Shown piece by piece: positions 321 through 62,950 of a DNA stretch of 64,000 nt. The stretch is from NCBI GenBank assembly GCA_009914755.4, contig CP068257.2:23872001-23936000 (forward strand). Reading direction: 5' to 3'. This DNA is from the human T2T-CHM13v2.0 reference genome, Homo sapiens. Made by a program: the position numbers and the translations under genes. Each line of letters begins with the position of its first letter. Positions within the stretch are counted from its first letter, which is position 1. Below the pieces are notes generated by a model. That model was given only the letters and a program-made list of their open reading frames with translations. It ran no database searches and was not told the origin of the DNA.

Positions 321-932
321 GTCAGTCAAGGTCCTCCAAAGAAACAGAACCAATAGAATGGATGGATGGATGGATGGATGGATGGATGGATGGATGGATG
401 GATGGAGACAGATAAAATATCACGAATTGGTTTACATGATTATGGAAGCTGAGAAGTCCCACAATTTGCCATCTATCAGATAGACAGGAAAACCAATGGT
501 GTCGTTCCAGTCTAAGTCTGAAGGCTTGAGAACAGGGAGCACCAATGGTGTAAGTTTTCATCAAAGTTCAAAAGTCTTAAAACCAGAGAGACAACAGTAT
601 AAGTTAAAGTTCAAGTACAAAAGCCTGGGAACCAGGAGCACCAAAGATGTAAGTCTCAGTTCAAGCGTGAGAAGACAGATGTCCCAACACAAACAGGCAG
701 GCAGGAAAGGGATGAATCTTCCCTTCCTCCACTTTTTGTTCTATTCAGGCCCTCAACAGATTGAATGAGTCCACCCATATTGGAGAAAGCAATCTTCTTT
801 ACTCAGTCTACCTATTCAAATGCTAATCTCTTCTAGAGACACCCTCATAGACACACACAGAAATAATGTTTAACCAAATATCTGGGCACACTGTGGTCTA
901 GTCAAGTTGACACATAAAAATAATCATCACAC
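321..932 (-). mobile_element. Solo LTR of an ERVL/MaLR-like family (family name not resolved); minus orientation
   Basis: TG...CA termini. Reverse complement of the LTR copies at 15478-16035 and 19930-20487 (shared blocks such as gtcaagttgacacataaaattaaccatcaca, cctattggttctgtttctctggag). (GGAT)n embedded. Confidence 0.5.
357..407. repeat. (GGAT)n tetranucleotide microsatellite, about 12 units
   Basis: Direct read: gatggatggatgg... Produces the repetitive peptide ORF at 322-564. Confidence 0.95.
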
Positions 933-5400: not shown

Positions 5401-7318
5401 TGCTACCTGCTGATTTTAGAGCCCTAGGACTTTGAGCAAATATAGGCAGTAGCCAGGCAGTGGTCACCACGGGCATTGGGCAAGATCCAGTACCATGCTG
5501 ACTTCAGGTCAGACCCAGCACAGTCCCAGTGGTGGTGGCCACAGGAGTGCTTGCATAATCCCTCCCCCAACTCCAGGCAGTTCAGCATAGGGAAAGAGAT
5601 TCCATTTATTTGGGAGAAAGTAAAGAAAGAGAACAAGAATCTCTGCCTGAAAATCCAGAGAATTCTTTCAGATCTTATCCAAGACCACCACCAAGGTGGT
5701 ACCTCTACAAGTCTGCAAGAGCCACAGTGTTACTAGGCTTGAGGCATCTCCTAAGGCAGACACAAGTGTCATGACCAAAACTCAGATTACAACACCTAAG
5801 TCCCTTAGAATACCTGGAAAGCCTTCCTAAGAAAGATGGGTACAAACAAGCTCAGACTGTGAAGACTACAATAAATACCTAACTCTTCAATGCCCAGACA
5901 CTGATGAACACCCACAAACATTAAGACTATCCAGGAAAATATAACCTCACCAAATTAACTAAATAAGGCACCAGAGAACAATTCTGAAGAAACAAAGATA
6001 TATGATCTTTCAGACAGAGAATTTAAAATAGCTGTTTTGAGGAAACTCAACAAAATTCAAGATAACACAGAGAAGGAATTTATAATCCTATCAAATAAAC
6101 TTAACAAAAAGACTGAAACAATTAAAAAGAATCAAACAAAAATTCTGGAGTTGAAAAATGCCACTGAAGAATGCATCAGAGTCCCTTACCAGAAGAACTG
6201 ATCAAGCAGAAGAAAGAATTAGTGAGCTTGAAGACAGGCTATTTGAAAATACACAGAGGAGACAAAAGAAAAATGAATTTAAAGGAAGAAAGCATGCCAA
6301 AAAGATCTAGAAAATAGCCTCAAAGGGGAAAATCTAAGAGTTATTGGCCTTAAAGGGGAAGGAGAGGGGGAGAAATAGGGGTAGAAAGTTTATTCAAAAT
6401 GATAACAGAGAACTTCACAAACCTAGAGGAAAATATCAGTATTCAAGTATAAGAAAGTATAGAACACCAAGCAGATTTAACCCAAATAGGACCACCTAAA
6501 GACATTTAATAATCAAACCACTAAAGGTTAAGGATAAAGAATTTTAAAAACAGCAGGAGAAAAGAAACAACACACAATGGAGCTCCAATACATATGAGAG
6601 CAAACTATTCAGGGGAAGCTGTATAGCCCAGGAAAGAGCTGTACGACGTATCTAAAGTGCTGAAGGAAAAAACTTTTATCCTAGAATAGTATATCTGGAG
6701 GAAATAGCCTTCAAACATGAAGGAGAAATGAAGACTTTTCAAGACAAACAAAAGTGGAGGGAATTTATCAACACCAGACCTGTCCTACAAGAAATGCTAA
6801 AGAGAGTTATTCGAGCTAAAGGAAAAGAACATTAATGAGCAATAACAAATCATCTAAAGGTACAAATCTCATGGGTAATAGTAAGTACACAGAAAAAATG
6901 CAAAATATAATAACACTGTAATTGTGATGTGTAAACTACTCATATCTCGAGTAGGAAAACTAAAAAGTAAGCCAATCAAAAATAACACCTATAACTTTTC
7001 AAAACATAGATGGTACTATGTAGATATATATAAAAACAACAAAAAGTTAAAAAGTGGAAGACAAATTTAAAGTGTGCAGTTGTTATTAGCTTTGCTTGTT
7101 TTTTAGTTTGTTTATGGAATCAGTGTTCAGTTGTCAAATAGGTAATAAAATTTTATTTGCAAGCCTCATGATAACCTCAGAATCAAAAAACATACAACAG
7201 GTATGCAAAAAGTATAAAGCAATAAATTAAAACATATCTCCAGAAAAAAATCACCTTCATTATAAGGAAGAAAAGAAGCAAGAGAAGACATCCAAACAAC
7301 CAGAAAACAAATAACAAA

Positions 7319-7645
7319 ATGGTAGAAGTAAGTCCTTACTTATCAATAATAACATTGAGCCTAAATGGACTAAACTCTCTAAGCAAAAGACACAGAGTGG
7401 CTGAATGGATGAAAAAACAAGATCCAACAATCTGTTGCCTTCAAGAAACACACTTCGCCTATAAAGACAGGCATAGACTGAAAATAAAGATATGGAAAAA
7501 AATATTCCATGCAAATGAAAACCAAAACAGTGCAAGAGTAGCTATACTTAAAATATACAAAATAGATTTAAGGACAAAAGCTATAAAAAGAGAAGAAGAA
7601 GGTCCTTATAACATGATAAAGGGGTCAATCAGCAAGAGGATGTAA
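7319..7645 (+). pseudogene. L1 ORF2 N-terminal (endonuclease) remnant
   Basis: The translation LNGLNSLSKRHRVAEWMKKQDPTICCLQETHF..KDRHRLKIKIWKKIFHANENQ matches the L1 ORF2p start (LNINGLNSPIKRHRLA.WI..QDP.ICCLQETHL). Confidence 0.85.
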
Positions 7646-8831
7646 CAATTCTAAGCATACTTGCACCCAATACTGGAACACCCAAATGTATAAAGCAAAT
7701 ATTATTAGACCTCGAGAGAGATAGAGCCCTATACAATAATAGCTAGATACTTCAACATCTCACTTTCAGCATTGGACAGATCATCCAGACAGAAAATCAA
7801 GAAAGAAATATCAGACTTAATCTGCACTATAGACCAAATGGACCTAATTGATATTTACAGAACATTTCATTCAACAGCTGCAGAATGCATATTCTTCTCC
7901 TCAGGGCATGGATCATTCTCAAGTATGGACTATGTTAGGACACAAAACAAGTCTTTAAATATATTTTTTAAAAAAAGAAATTACATAAAATATTTTATCT
8001 GACCACAATGGAATAAAACTAGAAATCAATAACAAAAGGAATTTTGGAAACTACAAAAACACATGAAAATTAAACAATATGCTCCTGAATGGCAGTGGGC
8101 TAATGAAGAAATTAAGAAGACAATTTAAAAATTTCTTGAAATAAATGATAATGGAAACACAACACACCAAAACCTATGGGATCCAGTAAAAGCAGTCATA
8201 AGAGGAAAGTTTATAGCTATAAGTGCCTACATCAAAAAGGTATAAAAACTACCCAAAAACGCGTCTTTAAGAACTTAAAAAATCAGGAGTAAATCATACC
8301 CAAAATTAGTAGAAGAAGAAAAATAATGAAGACCAGAGAAGATATAAATGAAATTGAAATGAAGAAAACAATATAAAAGATCAATGAAATGAAAAGTTTG
8401 TTTTCTTGAAAAGATAAATAAAATTGAAAAACCTTTAGCCAGACTAAAAAAAGAAGAGAAAAAAATCCAAATAAATAAAATCAGAGATGAAAAAAGAGAC
8501 ATTACAACTGATGTCACAGAAATTCAATGGATCATCAGAGGCTACTATGAGAAACTATATGTCAATAAATTGGAAAACCTAGAAGAAATGGATAAATTCC
8601 TAGACACATACAACCAATCAAAATTGAGCCATGAAGAAATCCAATACCTGAATAGACCAAAAATGAGAAACAAGATTGAGCCACAATAAAAAGCCTCCCA
8701 GCAAAGAAAAGCCCTGGACCCAGTGGCTTCCCTGTTGAATTCTACCAAATTTTTAAAGAAAAACTAATACCAATCCTACTCAAACTATTCCAAAAAATAG
8801 AGGAGGGGAGAATATTTCCAAACTCATTCTA

Positions 8832-8926
8832 TTAGGCTGGTACAAATGCAATTGCGATTTTTGCCATTGAAAGTAATGGCAAAACCCACAATGGCAAAAA
8901 CCACAATTGCCTTTGCACCAACCTAA
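8832..8926. mobile_element. MADE1-type mariner MITE nested in L1
   Basis: ttaggctggtacaaatgcaattgcgatttttgccattgaaagtaatggcaaaa...ccacaattgcctttgcaccaacctaa. Palindromic TIRs (ttaggttggtgcaaaag / cttttgcaccaacctaa type). Interrupts L1 ORF2. Confidence 0.8.
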
Positions 8927-9004
8927 TATGAGACCAGTATTACACTGATACCAAAGCCAGACAAAAGCACATCAGAAAAAGAAAACTACAGGCTAATATC
9001 GCAG

Positions 9005-9244
9005 ATGAACATAGATGCAAAACTCCTCAACAAAATATCAGCAAACCAAATTCAACAACACATTAAAAAGGTCATTCATCATGACCAAGTGGGATTTATC
9101 CCTGGAATAAAAGGATGGTTCAACATATGCAAATCAAACAACGTGATACATCATATCAACAGAATAAAGGACAAAACCCATATGACCATTTCAATTGATG
9201 CTGAAAAAACATTTGATAAAATTAAACATCTCTTCATGATTTAA
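9005..9244 (+). pseudogene. L1 ORF2 reverse-transcriptase segment remnant
   Basis: [65 protein letters not shown] matches the conserved L1 RT block. Confidence 0.85.
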
Positions 9245-9272
9245 AAAAACAAAAAAACAAAAAAAACAAAAA

Positions 9273-9576
<304 letters not shown>

Positions 9577-11585
9577 TCTTGGTAAAGAAGGAATGTACCT
9601 CAGCATAATAAAAGCCAGATACAACAGACTCACAGTTAGTATCATACTAAATGGGGAAAAATTACAAGTCTTTCCTCTCAGATTTAGAACATAACAAAGA
9701 TGCCCACTTTCACCACCATTATTCAACATAGTACTGGAAGTCCTAGCTGGAGTAATCAGACAAGAGAAAGAAATAAAGGTATCCAAATTGGAAAGGAAGC
9801 AGCCAAATTATCATGGTTTACTGATGATGTGATCTTATATTTGGAAAAACTTAAAGACTCCACAAGAAAACAATGAAAACTGATAAATTCAGTAAAGTTG
9901 AAGGATACAAAATCAGCATACGTAAATCAGCAGCATTTCTATATGCCAACAGCCATCCGAAAAACATTCTGAAAAAAAATCAAGAAAGTAATACCATTTA
10001 CCATAGCTATGAATAAAATTCAATACCTAGAAATTAACCAAAGAAGTGAAAAATCTCAACAATGAAAACCATAAAACACTGATGCAAGAAATTAGAGAGA
10101 ATACCAAAAATAAAAGGAAAAATATCCCATGTTCATGTATTGAAGGAATCAATATTGTTAAAATGTTCATGCTACTACTCAAAGCAATCTACAGATTCAG
10201 TGCAATCCCTATCAAAATTTATATGGAGCCACAAAAGACCCAGAATAGCCAAAGCTATCCTGAGAAAAAAAAAAAAAGGAGGACTCACATTACCTCACTT
10301 CAAATTGTACTACAGAGCTATAGTAACCAAAACAGCAGAAAACAGGTACTGGCATGAAAACAGACACAAGAACATACCACTGGAGAAAGGACCATCTCCT
10401 CAACAAACGGTTCTGGGAAAACTGAATATCCATATGCAGAAGAATTAAATTAGACCCCTATCTCTCACGATATACAAAAATCAAATCAAAATCGATTAGA
10501 GACTTAAATCTAAGACCTTAAAATATGAAACTACTAAAAGAAAACATTGGGAAAACTCTCCAGGACACTGGTCTGGGCAAAAATTTCTTGGGTAATACCC
10601 CACAAGCACAGGAAAGCAAAGCAAAAATGGACACATATGATCACATTAAGTTAGAAAGCTTCTGCACAGCAAGTAACAAATTTAACAAAGTAAAGAGGCA
10701 ACCCACAGAATAGGAGAAAATATTTTCAAACTATCCATCTGACAAGGATTAATAACCAGTATATATAAAGAGCTCACACAACTCTGTAGGAAAAATCTAA
10801 TAATCCAATTTTAAAATGGGCAAAAGATTTGAATACACATTTTTGAAAGAAGACATACAATTTGCAACCAGGTATATAAAAAGGTGCTCAACATCATTGA
10901 TCACCAGAGAAATGCAAATCAAAACTACAATGAGATATCATCTCACCCCAGTTAAAATGATTTTATCCAAAGACAGGCAATAACAAATGTTGGCAAGGAT
11001 GCGGAGAAAAGGGAAGCCTCATACATGATTGGTGACAATGTAAATTAGTACAAGCACTATGGAGAACAGTTTGGAGTTTCCTGAAAAAACTAAAAATTGA
11101 GCTACCATATGATCCAGCAAAACCACTACTAGGTGTATACCCAAAAGAAAATAAATCAGTATATTGAAGAGACATCTGCATTCCCACATTTATTGCAGCA
11201 CTATTCACAATAGCCAAGATTTGGAAACAACCTAAGTGTCCATCAACAGGCCTTCTTATTCTTTAGTTATTTTTTGCCTGAAAAAAGTTAATTAAATCTT
11301 TTTTTCTGAAATGTGAATCTAATTCTCCTCCCACATCATTAGAGATATTGCTAAATTATCTTTCTTGACTGTATCTCTACCTTTTTCTCTTTTTCCAGGT
11401 TTTTTCCTCCAACATACCAATATTCTTACCAGTTTTTCTTTTTAAATGCCTTCTCTTTTGACCTTCTTGTTTCTCGTAGCTACTATCCTACATCATTCTC
11501 TTTAATGTCACACTACTTCCTACTTGCAAAAGTGGTCTACACTCTTAAGTCTCCAATTTCTAACCACTTTAAAACACTGCTGTAA

Positions 11586-45720: not shown

Positions 45721-46184
45721 GGAGACATCATTATTGTCATTTACAGGAAGCTGAGACATAAAAAGTTTAACGTTCAGATTCCACAGCTAGAATTAGTGTA
45801 AAATGCAGGTGTATTTGACTCCTAAAACCCATTTATCCATCCACTATTCTGGGTGTCTCAAACTGGGACCTAAAATGCGGAGGTTTGCACATGACCTGAA
45901 ATTACTTCCACCACTGGGAGAAGGGAGGATTGAGCAATTTCCTGTTTCTATTAAAGTGCATTATACAAACTTGTCATTCTGGGGATGAAAGGTCACCCTA
46001 GAATTGCCTATGGGCAATTTCTTATAGTTCAACCTAGAATGAGAAATGGGAAATTCAGAAAGGCATTGTAGGCATCTGTAACCAGCAGAGGGACGTGCCC
46101 CACCTGGGTGGGGACCATGCATCCTTGCCACATGCCCCACTGCACAACTTCCCCAGCTCCTCAACGTCACATGGATCTGGAAAG

Positions 46185-46445: not shown

Positions 46446-47660
46446 TTGTTTGAATTATAAGAGAAAAAGCATGTATCTTAAGAATAGAGGGTTTTAAAAT
46501 GCTCCCAAGTTCCTTAACCAACCTGAGCCATCTGTAAATTAAGTACTATGGGATTTCCAGCTCTGACATGTATTCTGACATGTAACTGGCATCAGTTTAA
46601 TACAAACTATTCTAAAATGTCTTGTGCCCTTGACAGGGAGGTCCAAGTACTGGATACTTGCAATGCAATCCAGCAGTGGCCCCGTCTTTCTTACAAAAAG
46701 GCCCCAGTCACATGTTGATGAGGCTAGATCTATTCCTGTCCTCCTTCTCTTCCCCATATTTCCTTATTCTTCTTCAAGTCTAAACGTTTATTGAACTGAG
46801 ACCCATGAATGAGTTACTCGACTAGGCTTGTAGGATAAACTTGCCAGGCTTTAGATCTATTTGTTCCTTTCCATCCCCCAAAATCAAATGGCTGCTCCAG
46901 GAAAATGTTCCCCTTGTGGCAGGGTCCGGGAGAAAAGAGAGAAGCGACAAAACCAAAAATTAAAACGACCGAAGTCCCATATGCTCCAGGAATATGTCCT
47001 GGAGATGGGAGTGGAGGGCAGGGGGAGAATGTTGTTGAGGTCAAAATTTTTGAAGTTTTAAGTCCTATATCTTGACATCCCGAGTATAAATGCGGGTACC
47101 AGACACAGTACAAACGTTCTCAAAGCCCAGTTACGTATTCCAAACCAAACGCGGGCTCTTGAAGGGTGATGAGGTAGGGATGAAATCCAGGATCGCCTGA
47201 AGACCATTTCTTCCTCTCTTAGGGACCTGCTGGTCTCCAGCTGATTCGGTCCAGGAGGAAAAACCTCCCACTTGCTCCTCTCGGGCTCCCTGCAAGGAGA
47301 GAGTAGAGACACTCCTGCCACCCAGTTGCAAGAAGTCGCCACTTCCCCCTCCAGCCGACTGAAAGTTCGGGCGACGTCTGGGCCGTCATTTGAAGGCGTT
47401 TCCTTTTCTTTAAGAACAAAGGTTGGAGCCCAAGCCTTGCGGCGCGGTGCAGGAAAGTACACGGCGTGTGTTGAGAGAAAAAAAATACACACACGCAATG
47501 ACCCACGAGAAAGGGAAAGGGGAAAACACCAACTACCCGGGCGCTGGGCTTTTTCGACTTTTCCTTTAAAAAGAAAAAAGTTTTTCAAGCTGTAGGTTCC
47601 AAGAACAGGCAGGAGGGGGGAGAAGGGGGGGGGGTTGCAGAAAAGGCGCCTGGTCGGTTA

Positions 47661-47667
47661 TGAGTCA
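47661..47667 (+). promoter_or_regulatory. MIR155HG: AP-1/TRE consensus heptamer TGAGTCA, 10 bp upstream of the TATA box
   Basis: Exact TGAGTCA in gttaTGAGTCAcaagtgagtTATAAAAG. A conserved AP-1 site near -40 is a described feature of the BIC/MIR155HG promoter. Confidence 0.6.
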
Positions 47668-47676
47668 CAAGTGAGT

Positions 47677-47684
47677 TATAAAAG
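47677..47684 (+). promoter_or_regulatory. MIR155HG: TATA box TATAAAAG
   Basis: Exact TATAAAAG about 30-40 bp upstream of the inferred TSS. Followed by an ATG-free GC-rich exon and a GT donor. Confidence 0.7.
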
Positions 47685-47709
47685 GGTCGCACGTTCGCAG
47701 GCGCGGGCT

Positions 47710-47833
47710 TCCTGTGCGCGGCCGAGCCCGGGCCCAGCGCCGCCTGCAGCCTCGGGAAGGGAGCGGATAGCGGAGCCCCGAGCCGCCCGCAGAGCAAGCG
47801 CGGGGAACCAAGGAGACGCTCCTGGCACTGCAG
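47710..47833 (+). ncRNA. MIR155HG: MIR155HG (BIC) exon 1, non-coding. TSS inferred about 25-40 bp downstream of TATA (start +/-15 bp); ends at splice donor CAG|GTACGC
   Basis: No ATG between TATA and the donor ...ctggcactgcag|gtacgccgac (GT at 47834-47835). The distance from this TSS to pre-miR-155 (about 11.8 kb) and to the AATAAA (about 13 kb) agrees with the known roughly 13-kb three-exon BIC gene. Confidence 0.7.
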
Positions 47834-50800
47834 GTACGCCGACTTCAGTCTCGCGCTCCCGCCCGCCTTTCCTCTCTTGAACGTGGCAGGGACGCCGGGG
47901 GACTTCGGTGCGAGGGTCACCGCCGGGTTAACTGGCGAGGCAAGGCGGGGGCAGCGCGCACGTGGCCGTGGAGCCCGGCCTGGTCCCGCGCGCGCCTGCG
48001 GGTGCCCCCTGGGGACTCAGTGGTGTCGCCTCGCCCGGGACCAGAGATTGCGCTGGATGGATTCCCGCGGGCAGAGGCAGGGGGAAGGAGGGGTGTTCGA
48101 AACCTAATACTTGAGCTTCTTTGCAAAGTTTCCTTGGATGGTTGGGGACGTACCTGTATAATGGCCCTGGACCAGCTTCCCTGTTGGAGTGGCCAGAGAA
48201 GTGTGTAAAACACACTAGAGGGGCAGGGTGGAAAAAGAGACTGCCTTCAAAACTTGTATCTTTTCGATTTCATTTTGAAAAATAACTACAAATCTATTTT
48301 AATTTTACAAAGTTAGACTCATAGCATTTTAGATATCAATGTCTTCATTTAACAGAAGTGAAGATGGAGCAAACGCTCAATCAGCGTCTGTATTTATTCG
48401 CTCCTGTTGTGCCAGGGTGCGTTTTTGCCGAGCGGTTGCCTTTCTTTACTCACAAAACCCCCTTGATGTCTGTCCTCCACGTTTTACGAGGGAGAGCCGG
48501 ATCTTTTGAAGTTTGTATCATCTAAAGCAGGTATATTGGGATGACTATGGATAGAATTTAACCTGAAAACACTGAAGTTGACAGCTGACAAAGATATAAG
48601 AATCCAAAGTATGTTAAAAATTAAGGAGCTGAGGCCCACAGAAGTGAAGTTACTTTTCCAGCATCACACAGCAGATCTAGGACCCTGTGTGATTTGAAAA
48701 GGCCAAGGTATCTAATGATGCTCATAATTTAGTTTACATTTTGTGTCAAATAGATGAGGTCAAGTGGACATTATGTGTATATTCCAAAGCCAAAATTACT
48801 GCTTGTAATATCCATTCATCTCTCCGAAGACGTAGTGCCTCTTTTATATGGCTTTAACCTAATGTATAATCGAAGTGAATTAGGGCAGCCAGACTTTTAA
48901 TCACAGGACTGATCTTTTAAAAACGGGTATATGTAAAGTTAATTGCTTATCTATGTGAACAGTAATATACACTATAAAAAGTTTTCAAGGCAACTTCCTG
49001 CCTGTGGTTTAATTTGATAGTCACAATGATAGGAAATTGGCAGGGTTAGGTGGTGGTATCTACATTTTGCCCATGAGGACTTGTGGCTCAGAGAATTTGA
49101 GTTTTTTCTAGTAAGGTCACTAGGTCCCTAGTGCACAGCCTGCTTTTAGGTACGGATGTGGGATGGGGGTGTCGGCAGACCACAGGGTTTTGACTCTCAG
49201 TTTGGGCTCATTTCCATGACTCCTTGCTGCCTCCCTGATTTCTGTCAAATGACCAAAGCACATTTAGTAATTACTTCTGCTGCAAGGACTACTCCTTATT
49301 AGGCTGTGATAAGTAAGTTTCCTCACATAGTGGGTCAGCTCACTCTGGCCACAGGACCCAGCTTCCTAACCACACACATTAAGAAAGAGAAAAATTAGCA
49401 CTGTCTGAGACCTACAACCACTTCAAGGGAGAACAGTGGTGTTTGCACAAATGTCTACTTTTGTTTTAACCTAGTCATGTGTAAAAAGTGTAATTCACTG
49501 GTCTTTACCAAAAAAAAAAAAAAAAAAACAACAACAAAAAAAAAACAGGCATCATAGTCTGCCTGTGCTGGACGCTATGCTAGACACTGGAGAGACAAAG
49601 GTGAGCAGGATAGGCACAACCCTACCCTTACAAACCCAGAAAGTTAGAGGAAGGCCATCAGGACATTGCTGTGCAATTTGATATCATTTCAATTTTGGTA
49701 ACATAGATATTTGAACTAATTAGAATGTGCTACAAATTTTGCCATTCTTTACTTTCCATATGCCAACATGGAAAATTTGTAACCCTCATCTTTAAATACC
49801 TCATCTTACCAGTCCTCTATAAATCAAAAAATCTACCCCAAAAAGCCCTAGGTTTTAACTTTTGAAAAGTTTTTTTTTATCAGCTTTTCAGGTCATGACT
49901 AAGATCTGCCATTCAATTTAAAGGAATTCTTTCATTTTAGAGTAATAGTTACTAAAATCCTTTATTCCTACCTCCTTGAGAATCTAATGGAAATTTTATA
50001 TGCTCTTCCCAGAAAATTTTTGTTAATGTGTATCCTCACACACCAATTTGCATTCGATGTTAGCAGGCTAGAGACTTCCTTGAATCTCAGCCATGACCCT
50101 CTTCGGGGGTCCACTTTCATAATCAGTATTCTAAACCTAGTAGGCATAAATAGCTTGAATAGAGGAAAGTGGTATGTAGACTCTTGCCCTTCACTTGGAC
50201 TGGGCACCTCTATCACTTGGACTGGGCACCAGCTAGTGCCCTTAACTAGCTGGTGTCTCCATTTTTGATAGTCATTGGCTATTGCTTAGCTGAAGCTATT
50301 GATTTTAACAGCCTTATTGTTTTGATATCAGGCTGCCACTCTGCAGAAGTCTAATACTGGGGAAGGAGCACCGGCCTGAGAACCATGGTTTGTTTCTAGG
50401 ACCAACTCTGCAGATTTCTGTGCCTCATTTTGCTCATCTCTAAGATGGGTGGTTGATGGGTGGCAGGGACTGAACCATTTCTAAAATCCCTTACACTGAT
50501 GAAATTCTGTGATTCCAGTGTAACTACCAAGCTCACTTTCATATACCTCCTGAGACACAGCTGGTCTTAGTGAATTTATATCCTCTATGTCCAAAGTAAG
50601 TCAAAGTAAGTACCACTATAATTCACTATAGAATGTATTTTTGTCTTTCACTGATCTTACTGGACTCAAAACTGTTACATGTTTCCTTAAATTAGATAGA
50701 ATAAAAAAATTGTGAAACACTACTTTTCAAGGAAAAATATTACAATTTTAAAAGCCTCTTTTTATCCCACCTCTCAGTAGCTACAACTTTCATATACGAG

Positions 50801-55414: not shown

Positions 55415-55499
55415 ATAACTTGTCTGCATTTCAAGAACAACCTACCAGAGACCTTACCTGTCACCTTGGCTCTCCCACCCAATGGAGATGGCTCTAATG
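55415..55499 (+). ncRNA. MIR155HG: Candidate MIR155HG exon 2 (85 nt), flanked by strong canonical splice sites
   Basis: Acceptor: tcaaccccaaccctttttccccAG|ATAACTTGTCTGC.... Donor: ...GGCTCTAATG|GTAAGGaattc. Size fits a three-exon transcript of about 1.5 kb. Unique (non-repeat) sequence. Not independently confirmed. Confidence 0.5.
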
Positions 55500-56880: not shown

Positions 56881-59558
56881 AGATATTCTTAAATCTTATG
56901 CTCACACTCCACCCCCCCCAAAAAAATTGTCCTTCAGGAAAGCATAATTTAAGGAAAAATTTCCCAAAGTGCCACCTTCAGCTTCATTCTTAGCACCAGA
57001 GGAAGAATTGCCTGTCATATAATGAAAGATCCTTGGTGTTATCATTAATCTAGTATACATAGTGCTTCCTCTTGGTAGATTTTTACCTACTGTGAGAAGG
57101 AATGATTTTGATACTCAGACAGTGTGTAGTAATTTGTTAAGAACATTTAACTTGGAACCTATGCTACACAGTAAAACTTATACTGACAATGGATATTTCA
57201 TGTGGTAGGCCTAAGAAGTATTGTGGAGTGAGGGGACTGGAAGTATATCTGCAGAACTACCTAGTCAAAGACCCCAGTCTAATTTCTAATGTATAATTCA
57301 TATAAATTACTCTTGCATTGCTATACATTAAACATTATGCTTGTCACATTCTTACTTGGTTAGCACTGTCACTACTGATTGTCAGGCCTATAATTGTGTA
57401 TAATTCTTCCCCTGCCACTTTACCAGCTGGTGGCCACACCGATTCCAGAAAGAACTACTTTATTTCTTATTACCTCATGAAAGCACCCTCTGCCCAGTGC
57501 CTTGGCTAATAGACTGGCCTTTGTTGTCTATGACCACTAATTCCCACTCAGGCATATAGCAATTCTGTTGGTGGTTGCTTAGCCCAGTCAAAAACACTGG
57601 AAGTGGACATAGACTCCACACTGATGAATGAATGACCTTCTAGTCATTCTAATGTCCTTAAAAGTCTACTATTTTTAAATTGTAGAATATATATATATAT
57701 ATATATATTTTTTTTTTTTCTGGGATATTTCTCCTTTCTTCTGTTCATTAATGTTTTTCATCTATCATTGTGTTTTAAATATGACCTAAGGTTCTATAGT
57801 ATATTTAGACAAACTTCTCATTTCTCTGCAGTGTTCGGAATTCATCATGCCTGTATGACAAGGTTGTGTTTGAGAACAAAAGGGGACCTGTGTGACATGT
57901 TTTATTTCAATATACATTTAGAGTTTGAACAAATAAAAAAAGCTATTAGAATTTTTAATATATATAACACATTATCAAAAACACTGTCACTTTTCTGAGT
58001 GCTCTAATCAGGCAATTCGTATGTATATTTAAAAAGAGGGAAAAAGCTAATTAGTATACTAAATATATTTATTTTAATACCTGTGCTCATATGTTATCTT
58101 TAAAGAACAGGAATAAAATTTATGGGTAGAATAGTATGCCAGCAATTTACCTTCAATACAAATTAAACACATCTTTTAAGAAAAGGGCGAGTTATATTGG
58201 CTGGGGTGGCACTAACACTACATTATTAATATGTATTTATTGAGCATTTACTGTGTCCAGGACCCTGTAAGGGGGAAAAAAAGTCCTTGTTTTTACAATC
58301 TTTATTGACTGAAATTCTGTAAAATGAATTGAATTCCTGAAGTGACATCATTTAACCCAAATTTTTTCATCATCAACTAATTCATCTCAGAAAACAGTAA
58401 AGTTTAAAAAAAAATACTATCAGTAAGAATAATATATTTCCTTGGTTTGGAAATTTCCAAACCACGATATTCTGCCCTGTCAAAATATATTCACTGGGGA
58501 ATTTTTTACTTCATACGTTTCTTTTGAACTTAGTCACATTTTTATATCTAGCTGGTTTCATTATTAAATAAAAGAAAAGGTGATTCCCCTCTTGTACTGC
58601 AGGAGACCACATACTTGAATGATACTCTAACTTCTAGGTTCTGTTATAGTAACACTGAAATCAGAAACCTGTGGGAGAAATGTCACTTTATCTGAGAGAG
58701 TAAAATCAGACTCTAAAAGGAAGTAGCAAATTCATCTTGTTCTTTTTTTTAATCAACCCTCTGCCTAAGACAAGTAGTTTGAAACACAGAGGACTCTTTA
58801 AGTCATACTTCCTTTATGTAGTCAAAACCAAAGCCACTGGGTAGTGCTTTCCCCAAAGGAATCTCTAAATAGTAGACGGGGACATTTTCAGATAGATTCG
58901 TTTGTAGGCAAACCTCCATTGCTTGTATCACATTTCCTGAAAGAATAAAGGTAAAACTTCAACTATGTATTACAGAAAGAAAAATTCAGCCTGAACCCTA
59001 CCCTTATAAAACAGGTTAATTGGGTTTTAATTTTCATAAATCATAAAGGACTATTTTGAACATTTGGGCCTTTAATTGTCTAGCTCCTAGATGAAGTACA
59101 AATCAGAAAAAAAAAAACTGTACTGTGTCAGAATGCAAGCTTTCCTCTTTGCATTTTGGCATTTGAAAACTCCGAAGAGCGGTTTTTGTTTTTTATTTAA
59201 AGAAGATGATACATATGTGTACCCGATTCAAAACTAGAGAATAGAATTTAAAACATAATTTTCAAAGTCTTCAAATATGCCTAAAGGTAACAATGTCATC
59301 TTTTAATTGCCAATTTCTCTACCACTTTCAAAAAATTACTTCCAAGGATTTAATGAGCTCCTTCCTTTCAACAGAAAATGGACTATTTTCCTTTCAGATT
59401 TACTATATGCTGTCACTCCAGCTTTATAACCGCATGTGCATACACAAACATTTCTTTCTCTCTTGCAGGTGGCACAAACCAGGAAGGGGAAATCTGTGGT
59501 TTAAATTCTTTATGCCTCATCCTCTGAGTGCTGAAGGCTTGCTGTAGGCTGTATGCTG

Positions 59559-59582
59559 TTAATGCTAATCGTGATAGGGGTT
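59559..59582 (+). ncRNA. MIR155: Mature miR-155-5p: UUAAUGCUAAUCGUGAUAGGGGUU
   Basis: Exact match to the hsa-miR-155-5p sequence (ttaatgctaatcgtgataggggtt). Confidence 0.97.
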
Positions 59583-59597
59583 TTTGCCTCCAACTGA

Positions 59598-59619
59598 CTC
59601 CTACATATTAGCATTAACA
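59598..59619 (+). ncRNA. MIR155: Mature miR-155-3p: CUCCUACAUAUUAGCAUUAACA
   Basis: Exact match (ctcctacatattagcattaaca) on the 3' arm. Confidence 0.95.
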
Positions 59620-60329
59620 GTGTATGATGCCTGTTACTAGCATTCACATGGAACAAATTGCTGCCGTGGGAGGATGACAAAGAAGCATGAGTCACCCTGC
59701 TGGATAAACTTAGACTTCAGGCTTTATCATTTTTCAATCTGTTAATCATAATCTGGTCACTGGGATGTTCAACCTTAAACTAAGTTTTGAAAGTAAGGTT
59801 ATTTAAAAGATTTATCAGTAGTATCCTAAATGCAAACATTTTCATTTAAATGTCAAGCCCATGTTTGTTTTTATCATTAACAGAAAATATATTCATGTCA
59901 TTCTTAATTGCAGGTTTTGGCTTGTTCATTATAATGTTCATAAACACCTTTGATTCAACTGTTAGAAATGTGGGCTAAACACAAATTTCTATAATATTTT
60001 TGTAGTTAAAAATTAGAAGGACTACTAACCTCCAGTTATATCATGGATTGTCTGGCAACGTTTTTTAAAAGATTTAGAAACTGGTACTTTCCCCCAGGTA
60101 ACGATTTTCTGTTCAGGCAACTTCAGTTTAAAATTAATACTTTTATTTGACTCTTAAAGGGAAACTGAAAGGCTATGAAGCTGAATTTTTTTAATGAAAT
60201 ATTTTTAACAGTTAGCAGGGTAAATAACATCTGACAGCTAATGAGATATTTTTTCCATACAAGATAAAAAGATTTAATCAAAAAATTTCATATTTGAAAT
60301 GAAGTCCCAAATCTAGGTTCAAGTTCAAT

Positions 60330-60711: not shown

Positions 60712-60717
60712 AATAAA
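60712..60717 (+). terminator. MIR155HG: Polyadenylation signal AATAAA (candidate MIR155HG 3'-end signal)
   Basis: Exact AATAAA in ccaaATAAAtctcatgag, about 1.25 kb into exon 3. Consistent with an approximately 1.5-kb spliced transcript. Confidence 0.5.
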
Positions 60718-60906: not shown

Positions 60907-61002
60907 CACTTTCTGTTCAAGTTGTATGTGCTGCCAAGACAAATTTCTTCTCCTCACTTTCTGTTCAAGTTGTATGTGCTGCCAACACAAATTTCTTCTC
61001 CT
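60907..61002 (+). repeat. Tandem duplication: 48-bp unit x2 (1 mismatch)
   Basis: cactttctgttcaagttgtatgtgctgccaaGacaaatttcttctcct followed immediately by the same unit with G to C. Explains the duplicated peptide PHFLFKLYVLP in ORFs 60830-61101. Confidence 0.9.

Positions 61003-62617: not shown

Positions 62618-62950
<333 letters not shown>

What the first reader, a model, noticed from the sequence alone, without database searches (positions are those of the whole stretch)
47600..47840. Compact TATA plus AP-1 promoter inside a CpG island, driving a non-coding first exon
TGAGTCA (47661) lies 10 bp upstream of TATAAAAG (47677). An ATG-free, very GC-rich 5' exon follows, ending in CAG|GTACGC (47833/47834). 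The geometry matches the described BIC/MIR155HG promoter, where a conserved AP-1 site mediates B-cell-receptor/PMA inducibility. The 11.8-kb spacing to the miRNA supports the assignment.
Basis: partly seen in the sequence, partly recalled or inferred. Interest (0 to 1): 0.6.

Follow-up and report, generated by a model that had tools for sequence, protein, structure and literature searches.

The report
Known human MIR155HG (BIC) core promoter

Summary
These are TGAGTCA at 47661-47667, TATAAAAG at 47677-47684, an ATG-free 75% GC stretch, and CAG|GTACGC at 47833/47834. All lie in the window's only real CpG island (47069-48190). Each motif alone is at chance frequency. The same-strand pair within 30 nt is expected 0.02 times per window.

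The identity is firm. Rfam places mir-155 at 59556-59620 on the same strand. Exons 2 and 3 and the miPEP155 ORF are found as published. Published human BIC/MIR155HG reagents from four papers match the window exactly. They include the mutagenesis primer that replaces this very GAGTCA, and the EMSA probe bound by Fra2, JunB or JunD.

The published "AP-1 at -40" and "NF-kB at -1150" numbering, TATA spacing and the 13,024-bp gene span put the start site at about 47702-47721.

Three points remain untested here. I had no RNA data for use of the exon-1 donor. I retrieved no orthologues for conservation. The papers I read credit PMA induction to NF-kB rather than AP-1.

The parts
46048..46056 (+). Distal NF-kB site (GGGAAATTC), 'NF-kB site 2' or '-1697' in Gatto 2008. 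It lies about 1,650 nt upstream of 47703 by my count.
   Evidence: Gatto mutagenesis primer flanks map to 46030-46048 and 46055-72.
46550..46558 (+). NF-kB site 1 (GGGATTTCC), the published '-1150' site.
   Evidence: Gatto primers map to 46534-46550 and 46557-70. The EMSA probe of PMC3671690 is 46544-46563.
47069..48190 (.). CpG island (1,122 bp, GC 59%, o/e 0.83). It covers the proximal promoter, exon 1 and the 5' end of intron 1.
   Evidence: Methylation-PCR and pyrosequencing primers of PMC4259436 map to 47284-47530 after in-silico bisulfite conversion.
47509..47527 (+). GAAAGGGAAA (ISRE-like) followed by GGGGAAAACA (kB half-site-like), at about -175 to -195. Probably the area of the published -178 NF-kB site. 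Not mapped exactly.
   Evidence: Motif scan. The position is stated in PMC3849010. Its primer table is not held.
47615..47634 (+). G-rich tract (G6, AGAA, G10) 27 nt upstream of the TRE. Role unknown.
47661..47667 (+). AP-1 site (TRE, TGAGTCA), the published '-40' element.
   Evidence: Published mutagenesis primer and EMSA probe match exactly.
47677..47684 (+). TATA box (TATAAAAG).
   Evidence: [quoted passage not shown]
47702..47721 (+). Inferred transcription start zone.
   Evidence: Four lines of arithmetic agree. TRE + 40. TATA first T + 25 to 31 nt (general knowledge). kB1 + 1150. '190 bp' beyond the methylation amplicon. The 13,024-bp span with a 3' end 10-30 nt past the end of the AATAAA gives 47704-47724. 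Not measured here.
47703..47833 (+). Exon 1. Non-coding, no ATG, 75% GC, about 113-132 nt depending on the start site.
   Evidence: The RNA fold is no more stable than shuffles (z = +1.1).
47831..47839 (+). Exon 1 splice donor CAG|GTACGC.
   Evidence: 7 of 9 match to consensus, and the best candidate for about 700 nt. Its use is inferred, not shown.
55415..55499 (+). Exon 2 (85 nt). Acceptor ccccag|ATA, donor ATG|GTAAGG. The last 18 nt begin the miPEP155 ORF.
   Evidence: PMC7314557.
59469..60744 (+). Exon 3. Its first 33 nt plus a stop codon finish the miPEP155 ORF. It carries the hairpin. The 3' end is approximate.
   Evidence: The 13,024-bp span is from PMC7314557.
59556..59620 (+). pre-mir-155 hairpin.
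   Evidence: Rfam RF00731, 90.1 bits, E = 8e-19, full length.
60712..60717 (+). Poly(A) signal AATAAA.

Best explanation
This is the core promoter and first exon of the human miR-155 host gene (MIR155HG, formerly BIC).

- A TATA box at 47677 positions RNA polymerase II to start about 25-45 nt downstream, at 47702-47721.
- A consensus AP-1 site lies 9 nt upstream of the TATA box. Jun/Fos-family dimers induced by B-cell-receptor, viral or microbial signals bind it and raise transcription.
- NF-kB sites further upstream (about -178, 46550-46558 and 46048-46056) add a second inducible input. A distal enhancer outside the window adds a third.
- The transcript opens with an AUG-free, GC-rich exon of about 113-132 nt. 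It is spliced from 47833 to exon 2 (55415-55499) and then to exon 3 (from 59469). Exon 3 carries the mir-155 hairpin (59556-59620) and ends after the AATAAA at 60712.
- Because exon 1 has no AUG, the first AUG of the spliced RNA is the start of the published 17-residue miPEP155 peptide.

Shown here: the sequence features, their exact identity with published reagents, and the exon 2/3 layout.
Taken from papers: factor binding, mutational effects and Pol II occupancy.
Inferred: the exact start site, use of the exon-1 donor, and any direct AP-1 to TFIID cooperation implied by the tight spacing.
For: - Rfam mir-155 lies on the same strand at 59556-59620, 90.1 bits.
- Published human reagents match the window exactly. 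The Gatto 2008 AP-1 mutagenesis primers replace 47662-47667, and its two NF-kB primer sets also map. The Wood 2018 promoter ChIP primers map. So do the PMC3671690 AP-1 and NF-kB EMSA probes and seven bisulfite primers of PMC4259436.
- Function from papers. The AP-1 element at -40 is essential for BCR induction (Yin 2008, as cited). AP-1 mutation lowers LMP1-driven, Tax-driven and Theileria-driven reporter activity. Fra2, JunB or JunD bind the probe. Pol II is on the TATA region.
- Start-site arithmetic from independent anchors converges on 47702-47724.
- Exon 2, exon 3 and the miPEP155 ORF are laid out as described in PMC7314557: 18 nt in exon 2, 33 nt in exon 3, and three exons.
- The composite motif is expected 0.02 times by chance.
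- This is the only CpG island in the window.
Against: - No RNA data (CAGE, 5'-RACE or spliced reads) could be consulted. The start site and the 47833-to-55415 junction are therefore inferred.
- Yin 2008, the primary paper, is not held.
- Papers disagree on the weight of AP-1 against NF-kB. p65 activates an AP-1-mutant reporter at least as well as wild type. Gatto 2008 found that NF-kB mutations cut basal activity far more than the AP-1 mutation.
- Conservation was not tested. The metagenome scan gave only 3 chance hits.
- Gatto's '-1697' label does not fit my count of about -1650.
Confidence: 0.93

Rival explanations
1. Same promoter, but NF-kB rather than AP-1 is the main inducible switch. 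The TRE next to the TATA box would only be an accessory or basal element.
For: - Mutating the NF-kB sites lowered basal and LMP1-induced reporter activity far more than the AP-1 mutation did, and PMA induction was attributed to NF-kB (PMC2582607).
- A -178 site bound by p50/p65 is required for p65 activation, and the AP-1 mutant is still activated (PMC3849010).
Against: - AP-1 mutation had the larger effect in B cells after BCR triggering (Yin 2008, as cited), in Tax-expressing T cells and in Theileria-infected cells.
- NF-kB may act indirectly by inducing Fos and Jun.
- Thompson 2013 reports no mouse counterpart of the -178 site.
Confidence: 0.3
2. In vivo expression is set mainly by distal enhancers, such as the EBNA2/IRF4-responsive element 60 kb upstream. 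The proximal TRE/TATA module would only serve as a docking platform.
For: [quoted passage not shown]
Against: - The enhancer primers are not in this window, so the element lies outside it.
- Short promoter reporters carrying the TRE are inducible on their own.
- The two models are compatible.
Confidence: 0.25
3. The TGAGTCA/TATAAAAG pair is a chance juxtaposition inside a dispersed, TATA-independent CpG-island promoter.
For: Each motif alone is at chance frequency in the window. Most CpG-island promoters lack a functional TATA box (general knowledge).
Against: - The composite is expected 0.02 times per window.
- Published mutation, EMSA and Pol II ChIP data concern exactly these bases.
- Independent position anchors agree with a start about 25-45 nt past the TATA box.
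Confidence: 0.02
4. The window is the orthologous locus of a non-human primate rather than human.
For: About 14 Alu copies show only that it is a primate genome. No species label is available.
Against: About 400 nt of published human primer and probe sequence from four papers match without a single mismatch. At roughly 1% divergence this would be unlikely for another ape. That estimate is an inference.
Confidence: 0.05

Closest known systems
Human BIC/MIR155HG promoter as characterised by Yin et al. 2008 (J Biol Chem 283:2654) and Gatto et al. 2008 (PMC2582607)
   Same: Identical sequence at every published primer and probe. It has the TRE at -40, the TATA box, the NF-kB sites, the CpG island, three exons and the hairpin in exon 3.
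   Different: Nothing found. [quoted passage not shown] The sequence shows a 9-nt gap, so only the '-40 from the start site' wording fits.
Classical TRE-driven, TATA-containing promoters such as collagenase/MMP1 and metallothionein IIA (general knowledge, not tested here)
   Same: The same consensus heptamer TGAGTCA upstream of a TATA box, and induction through Jun/Fos dimers.
   Different: Here the TRE is only 9 nt from the TATA box (the MMP1 TRE is near -72), the promoter lies in a CpG island, and the product is a microRNA host RNA.
Inducible promoters that combine a TATA box with a CpG island, such as FOS, JUNB and EGR1 (general knowledge)
   Same: A focused TATA-directed start inside a CpG island, with signal-responsive sites close to the core promoter.
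   Different: In monocytes/macrophages miR-155 induction needs new protein synthesis, namely Fos and Jun (PMC3417573). It therefore behaves as a secondary rather than a primary response there.
Chicken Bic/miR-155 promoter (PMC5657028)
   Same: The orthologous gene. NF-kB sites and AP-1 sites are reported in its promoter.
   Different: The functional NF-kB site is at -66 in chicken. No sequence was available to compare TRE/TATA spacing.

Membership tests
Human MIR155HG/BIC promoter and first exon | mir-155 hairpin downstream on the same strand, within the last exon | tested here: met
   RF00731 at 59556-59620 (+), 90.1 bits. It starts 88 nt into exon 3, which begins at 59469.
Human MIR155HG/BIC promoter and first exon | Consensus AP-1 site about 40 nt upstream of the start site, identical to published probes | tested here: met
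   TGAGTCA lies at 47661-47667. Mutagenesis primers and the EMSA probe match exactly.
Human MIR155HG/BIC promoter and first exon | TATA box upstream of the start site | tested here: met
   TATAAAAG at 47677-47684. Pol II ChIP on this region is reported in PMC2582607.
Human MIR155HG/BIC promoter and first exon | Published upstream NF-kB sites at the expected distances | tested here: met
   GGGATTTCC at 46550-46558 lies about 1,150 nt upstream of 47703. GGGAAATTC lies at 46048-46056. The -178 site was not mapped exactly.
Human MIR155HG/BIC promoter and first exon | Promoter CpG island assayed in methylation studies | tested here: met
   The island is 47069-48190. Seven bisulfite primers of PMC4259436 map to 47284-47530.
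Human MIR155HG/BIC promoter and first exon | Three-exon gene of 13,024 bp, with the miPEP155 ORF across the exon 2/3 junction | tested here: met
   Exon 2 is 55415-55499 and exon 3 starts at 59469. The ORF takes 18 + 33 nt and reads [17 protein letters not shown]. The span fits a start at 47704-47724 and an end 10-30 nt past the end of the AATAAA.
Human MIR155HG/BIC promoter and first exon | Start site and exon 1 to exon 2 junction confirmed by RNA data | not testable with these tools
   No transcript or CAGE resource is available. A text search for junction and exon-1 oligos found nothing relevant. The donor is inferred from its consensus match.
Human MIR155HG/BIC promoter and first exon | Conservation of the AP-1 element across vertebrates | tested here: inconclusive
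   The metagenome scan returned 3 unrelated chance hits. Conservation is stated in the papers only.
Protein-coding first exon (considered and rejected) | ATG-initiated ORF or a recognisable protein domain on either strand | tested here: not met
   Exon 1 has no ATG. The ORFs of 50-176 aa across the island all start with TTG or GTG. The five scanned have no Pfam match. No ORF of 180 aa or more exists in the whole window.

The most novel reading that the evidence does not exclude
The 9-nt juxtaposition of the TRE and the TATA box may be an obligatory composite core element, in which AP-1 must contact TFIID directly so that spacing matters. The AUG-free exon 1 may be maintained so that the miPEP155 start codon is the first AUG on the spliced host RNA. 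That would couple peptide output to the same AP-1 switch as the microRNA.
Probability: 0.12. Interest if true: 0.3.

Novelty: already known. Interest (0 to 1): 0.08.

Why it matters
miR-155 is a central regulator of B-cell, T-cell and macrophage activation and is an oncogenic microRNA in lymphomas. Its promoter is where BCR, Toll-like receptor, EBV LMP1, HTLV-1 Tax and parasite signals converge. Recognising the locus correctly matters for annotating the window. The promoter, its AP-1, TATA and NF-kB elements and its CpG island have been dissected since 2008, so this finding adds confirmation, not discovery.

Tried and rejected
1. Orthologue retrieval. One scan of metagenome contigs with ATGAGTCAC-N7-TTATAAAAGG gave 3 loci (L001-L003) with no flanking similarity to the window. 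These are chance hits. Conservation could therefore not be tested.
2. Primary papers. Yin 2008 JBC, Yin 2008 J Virol and Eis 2005 PNAS are not held. I relied on papers that cite them.
3. Exon-1 and junction oligos in the literature. A six-term sequence search found one unrelated paper.
4. Supplementary tables. The Thompson 2013 primer table and the Niu 2020 ORF table are not held. The -178 site and the ORF's transcript position could not be used to fix the start site.
5. Coding potential. The ORFs across the island are TTG/GTG-initiated and Arg/Pro/Ala-rich. The five scanned have no Pfam match. Rejected.
6. Structured leader RNA. The exon 1 fold is no more stable than shuffles, z = +1.1. Rejected.
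7. Distal enhancers E1 and E2 of Wood 2018. Their primers are absent from the window even allowing 2 mismatches. Those elements lie outside it.
8. The gene-structure review PMC9131122 gave no exon details.
Full report
**1. Observation**

The window reads ...GGTTA TGAGTCA CAAGTGAGT TATAAAAG GGTCG... The AP-1 heptamer is at 47661-47667 and the TATA octamer at 47677-47684, both on the + strand.
- Nine bases separate them, 16 nt start to start.
- There is no ATG between 47685 and 47833, and GC there is 75%.
- CAG|GTACGC has its exon/intron boundary at 47833|47834. It matches 7 of 9 positions of the donor consensus. It is the only GT that good until 48531.
- By the Gardiner-Garden criteria a single large CpG island spans 47069-48190. 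It is 1,122 bp with GC 59%, o/e 0.83 and 81 CpGs, in a window whose overall o/e is 0.18. The three other segments that pass some 200-bp windows are short and marginal. Two of the three overlap Alu copies.
- The TRE/TATA pair sits on the 5' shoulder of the GC-rich core.

Taken singly the motifs are not enriched. TGAGTCA occurs 8 times against 11.4 expected, and TATAAAAG 9 times against 5.1. The same-strand composite within 30 nt occurs once against 0.02 expected, and 2 of 100 shuffles reach it.

**2. Identity**

Rfam finds a full-length mir-155 hairpin at 59556-59620 on the + strand, at 90.1 bits and E = 8e-19.

I recalled a 25-mer from the BIC cDNA; that recollection is from memory, not a tool result. 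It matches once, at 55475-55499. This defines exon 2 as 55415-55499, with acceptor ccccag| and donor |GTAAGG. Exon 3 begins at 59469 after a 94% pyrimidine tract. An AATAAA lies at 60712.

Niu 2020 (PMC7314557) describes three exons, a 13,024-bp gene, and a 54-bp ORF. The ORF uses the last 18 nt of exon 2 and the first 33 nt of exon 3. The window reproduces this and translates to [17 protein letters not shown].

The strongest evidence is that published human reagents match exactly:
- The Gatto 2008 AP-1 mutagenesis primer GGCGCCTGGTCGGTTAT-CTCGAG-CAAGTGAGTTATAAAA flanks 47645-47661 and 47668-47683. It replaces precisely GAGTCA 47662-47667. Its partner primer is 47632-47661.
- The Gatto NF-kB primers bracket GGGATTTCC (46550-46558) and GGGAAATTC (46048-46056).
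- The Wood 2018 promoter ChIP primers are 47588-47609 and 47647-47666.
- The AP-1 EMSA probe of PMC3671690 is 47655-47674, and its NF-kB probe is 46544-46563.
- Seven bisulfite primers of PMC4259436 map to 47284-47530 after in-silico conversion.

About 14 Alu copies mark a primate genome. The mismatch-free reagents make human by far the likeliest source.

**3. Start site**

I had no RNA data, so the start is inferred from independent anchors:
- The literature places the AP-1 site 40 nt upstream of the start. That gives about 47701-47707.
- A TATA box usually lies 25-31 nt upstream of +1 (general knowledge). That gives about 47702-47708.
- The "-1150" NF-kB site at 46550-46558 gives about 47700-47708.
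- PMC4259436 says its assayed CpG region lies 190 bp upstream of the start. Its amplicons end at 47514-47530, which gives about 47704-47720.
- The 13,024-bp span, with cleavage 10-30 nt past the end of the AATAAA, gives 47704-47724.

All converge on 47702-47721. That makes exon 1 113-132 nt and places the hairpin 11.84-11.85 kb downstream.

[quoted passage not shown] The sequence contradicts this. The same paper's "-40 from the start site" wording fits.

**4. Mechanism**

Shown by sequence: a consensus TRE 9 nt upstream of a consensus TATA box in a CpG island, followed by an AUG-free exon with a good donor.

Taken from papers:
- The AP-1 element is essential for B-cell-receptor induction (Yin 2008, as cited).
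- Mutating it reduces LMP1-driven activity, Tax-driven activity and Theileria/c-Jun-driven activity.
- Pol II occupies the TATA region, more so after LMP1.
- In monocytes, NF-kB acts at least partly by inducing Fos and Jun.

NF-kB also acts directly in some settings. Mutation of the sites at -1150 and -1697 lowers basal and LMP1-driven reporter activity. A p50/p65 site at about -178 is required for p65 activation, and the AP-1 mutant remains p65-responsive. A distal enhancer 60 kb upstream sustains expression in EBV-infected cells. Its primers are not in this window.

Inferred:
- The tight TRE-TATA spacing suggests direct cooperation between AP-1 and the basal machinery.
- Because exon 1 has no AUG, the miPEP155 start codon is the first AUG of the spliced RNA.
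- The exon 1 RNA shows no special structure, z = +1.1.
- Neither strand shows coding potential.

**5. Comparison and novelty**

This is not merely like the BIC/MIR155HG promoter. It is that promoter, base for base wherever published sequence is available. Every defining feature that could be tested was met.

Three things remain untested here: RNA-level proof of the start site and the exon 1 junction, factor occupancy, and cross-species conservation.

PMA inducibility is credited to NF-kB in the papers I could read. AP-1 is one of several inputs rather than the sole switch.

**6. Verdict**

This is a correct call on an already known, heavily studied element. Interest is low (0.08). The only mildly open questions are whether the 9-nt TRE-TATA spacing is functionally obligatory, and whether the AUG-free leader is maintained for the micropeptide.

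Noticed in passing
window 55482-55499 + 59469-59504 (+): Exon 1 and the first 67 nt of exon 2 have no ATG. The first AUG of the spliced host RNA is therefore the start of the published 17-residue miPEP155 peptide ([17 protein letters not shown]). Its stop codon ends 51 nt before the hairpin.
   Followed up: yes
window 59688-59694 (+): A second perfect TGAGTCA lies inside exon 3, 68 nt downstream of the mir-155 hairpin. Eight such sites are at chance level for the window, so it may mean nothing.
   Followed up: no
window 60907-61002: A 48-bp unit is tandemly duplicated (2.0 copies, 97% identical) about 190 nt downstream of the MIR155HG poly(A) signal.
   Followed up: no
window 47615-47634 (+): A G6-AGAA-G10 tract lies 27 nt upstream of the AP-1 site. 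A G10 run is likely to vary in length between individuals. Its role in the promoter is unknown.
   Followed up: no
window 47509-47527 (+): An ISRE-like GAAAGGGAAA abuts GGGGAAAACA at about -175 to -195. This is close to the published -178 p50/p65 site, and IRF4 is reported to activate this promoter via an ISRE. The exact published sites could not be mapped because the primer table is not held.
   Followed up: partly
window 47897-47906 (+): A kB-like GGGGGACTTC lies in intron 1, about 190 nt downstream of the start site. Thompson 2013 mentions one high-scoring predicted NF-kB site in intron 1.
   Followed up: no
window 62833-62949 (-) and about 14 places from 9285 to 62939: The Rfam 'Metazoan SRP' hit just reaches threshold (70.3 bits against 70) and is an Alu element. 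About 14 Alu copies are scattered through the window. No ORF of 180 aa or more exists anywhere in the 64 kb.
   Followed up: partly
window 6000-11000: A long A-rich stretch (AT skew +0.27 to +0.39, GC about 31-38%) suggests a degenerate L1-type retroelement in sense orientation.
   Followed up: no
window 358-406, 20368-20433, 32925-32971: Microsatellites: (ATGG)12, (AATG)8 followed by (AC)17, and (AC)23.
   Followed up: no
PMC2582607 text versus window 47661-47684: [quoted passage not shown] Its '-1697' NF-kB label is about -1650 by my count from 47703.
   Followed up: yes
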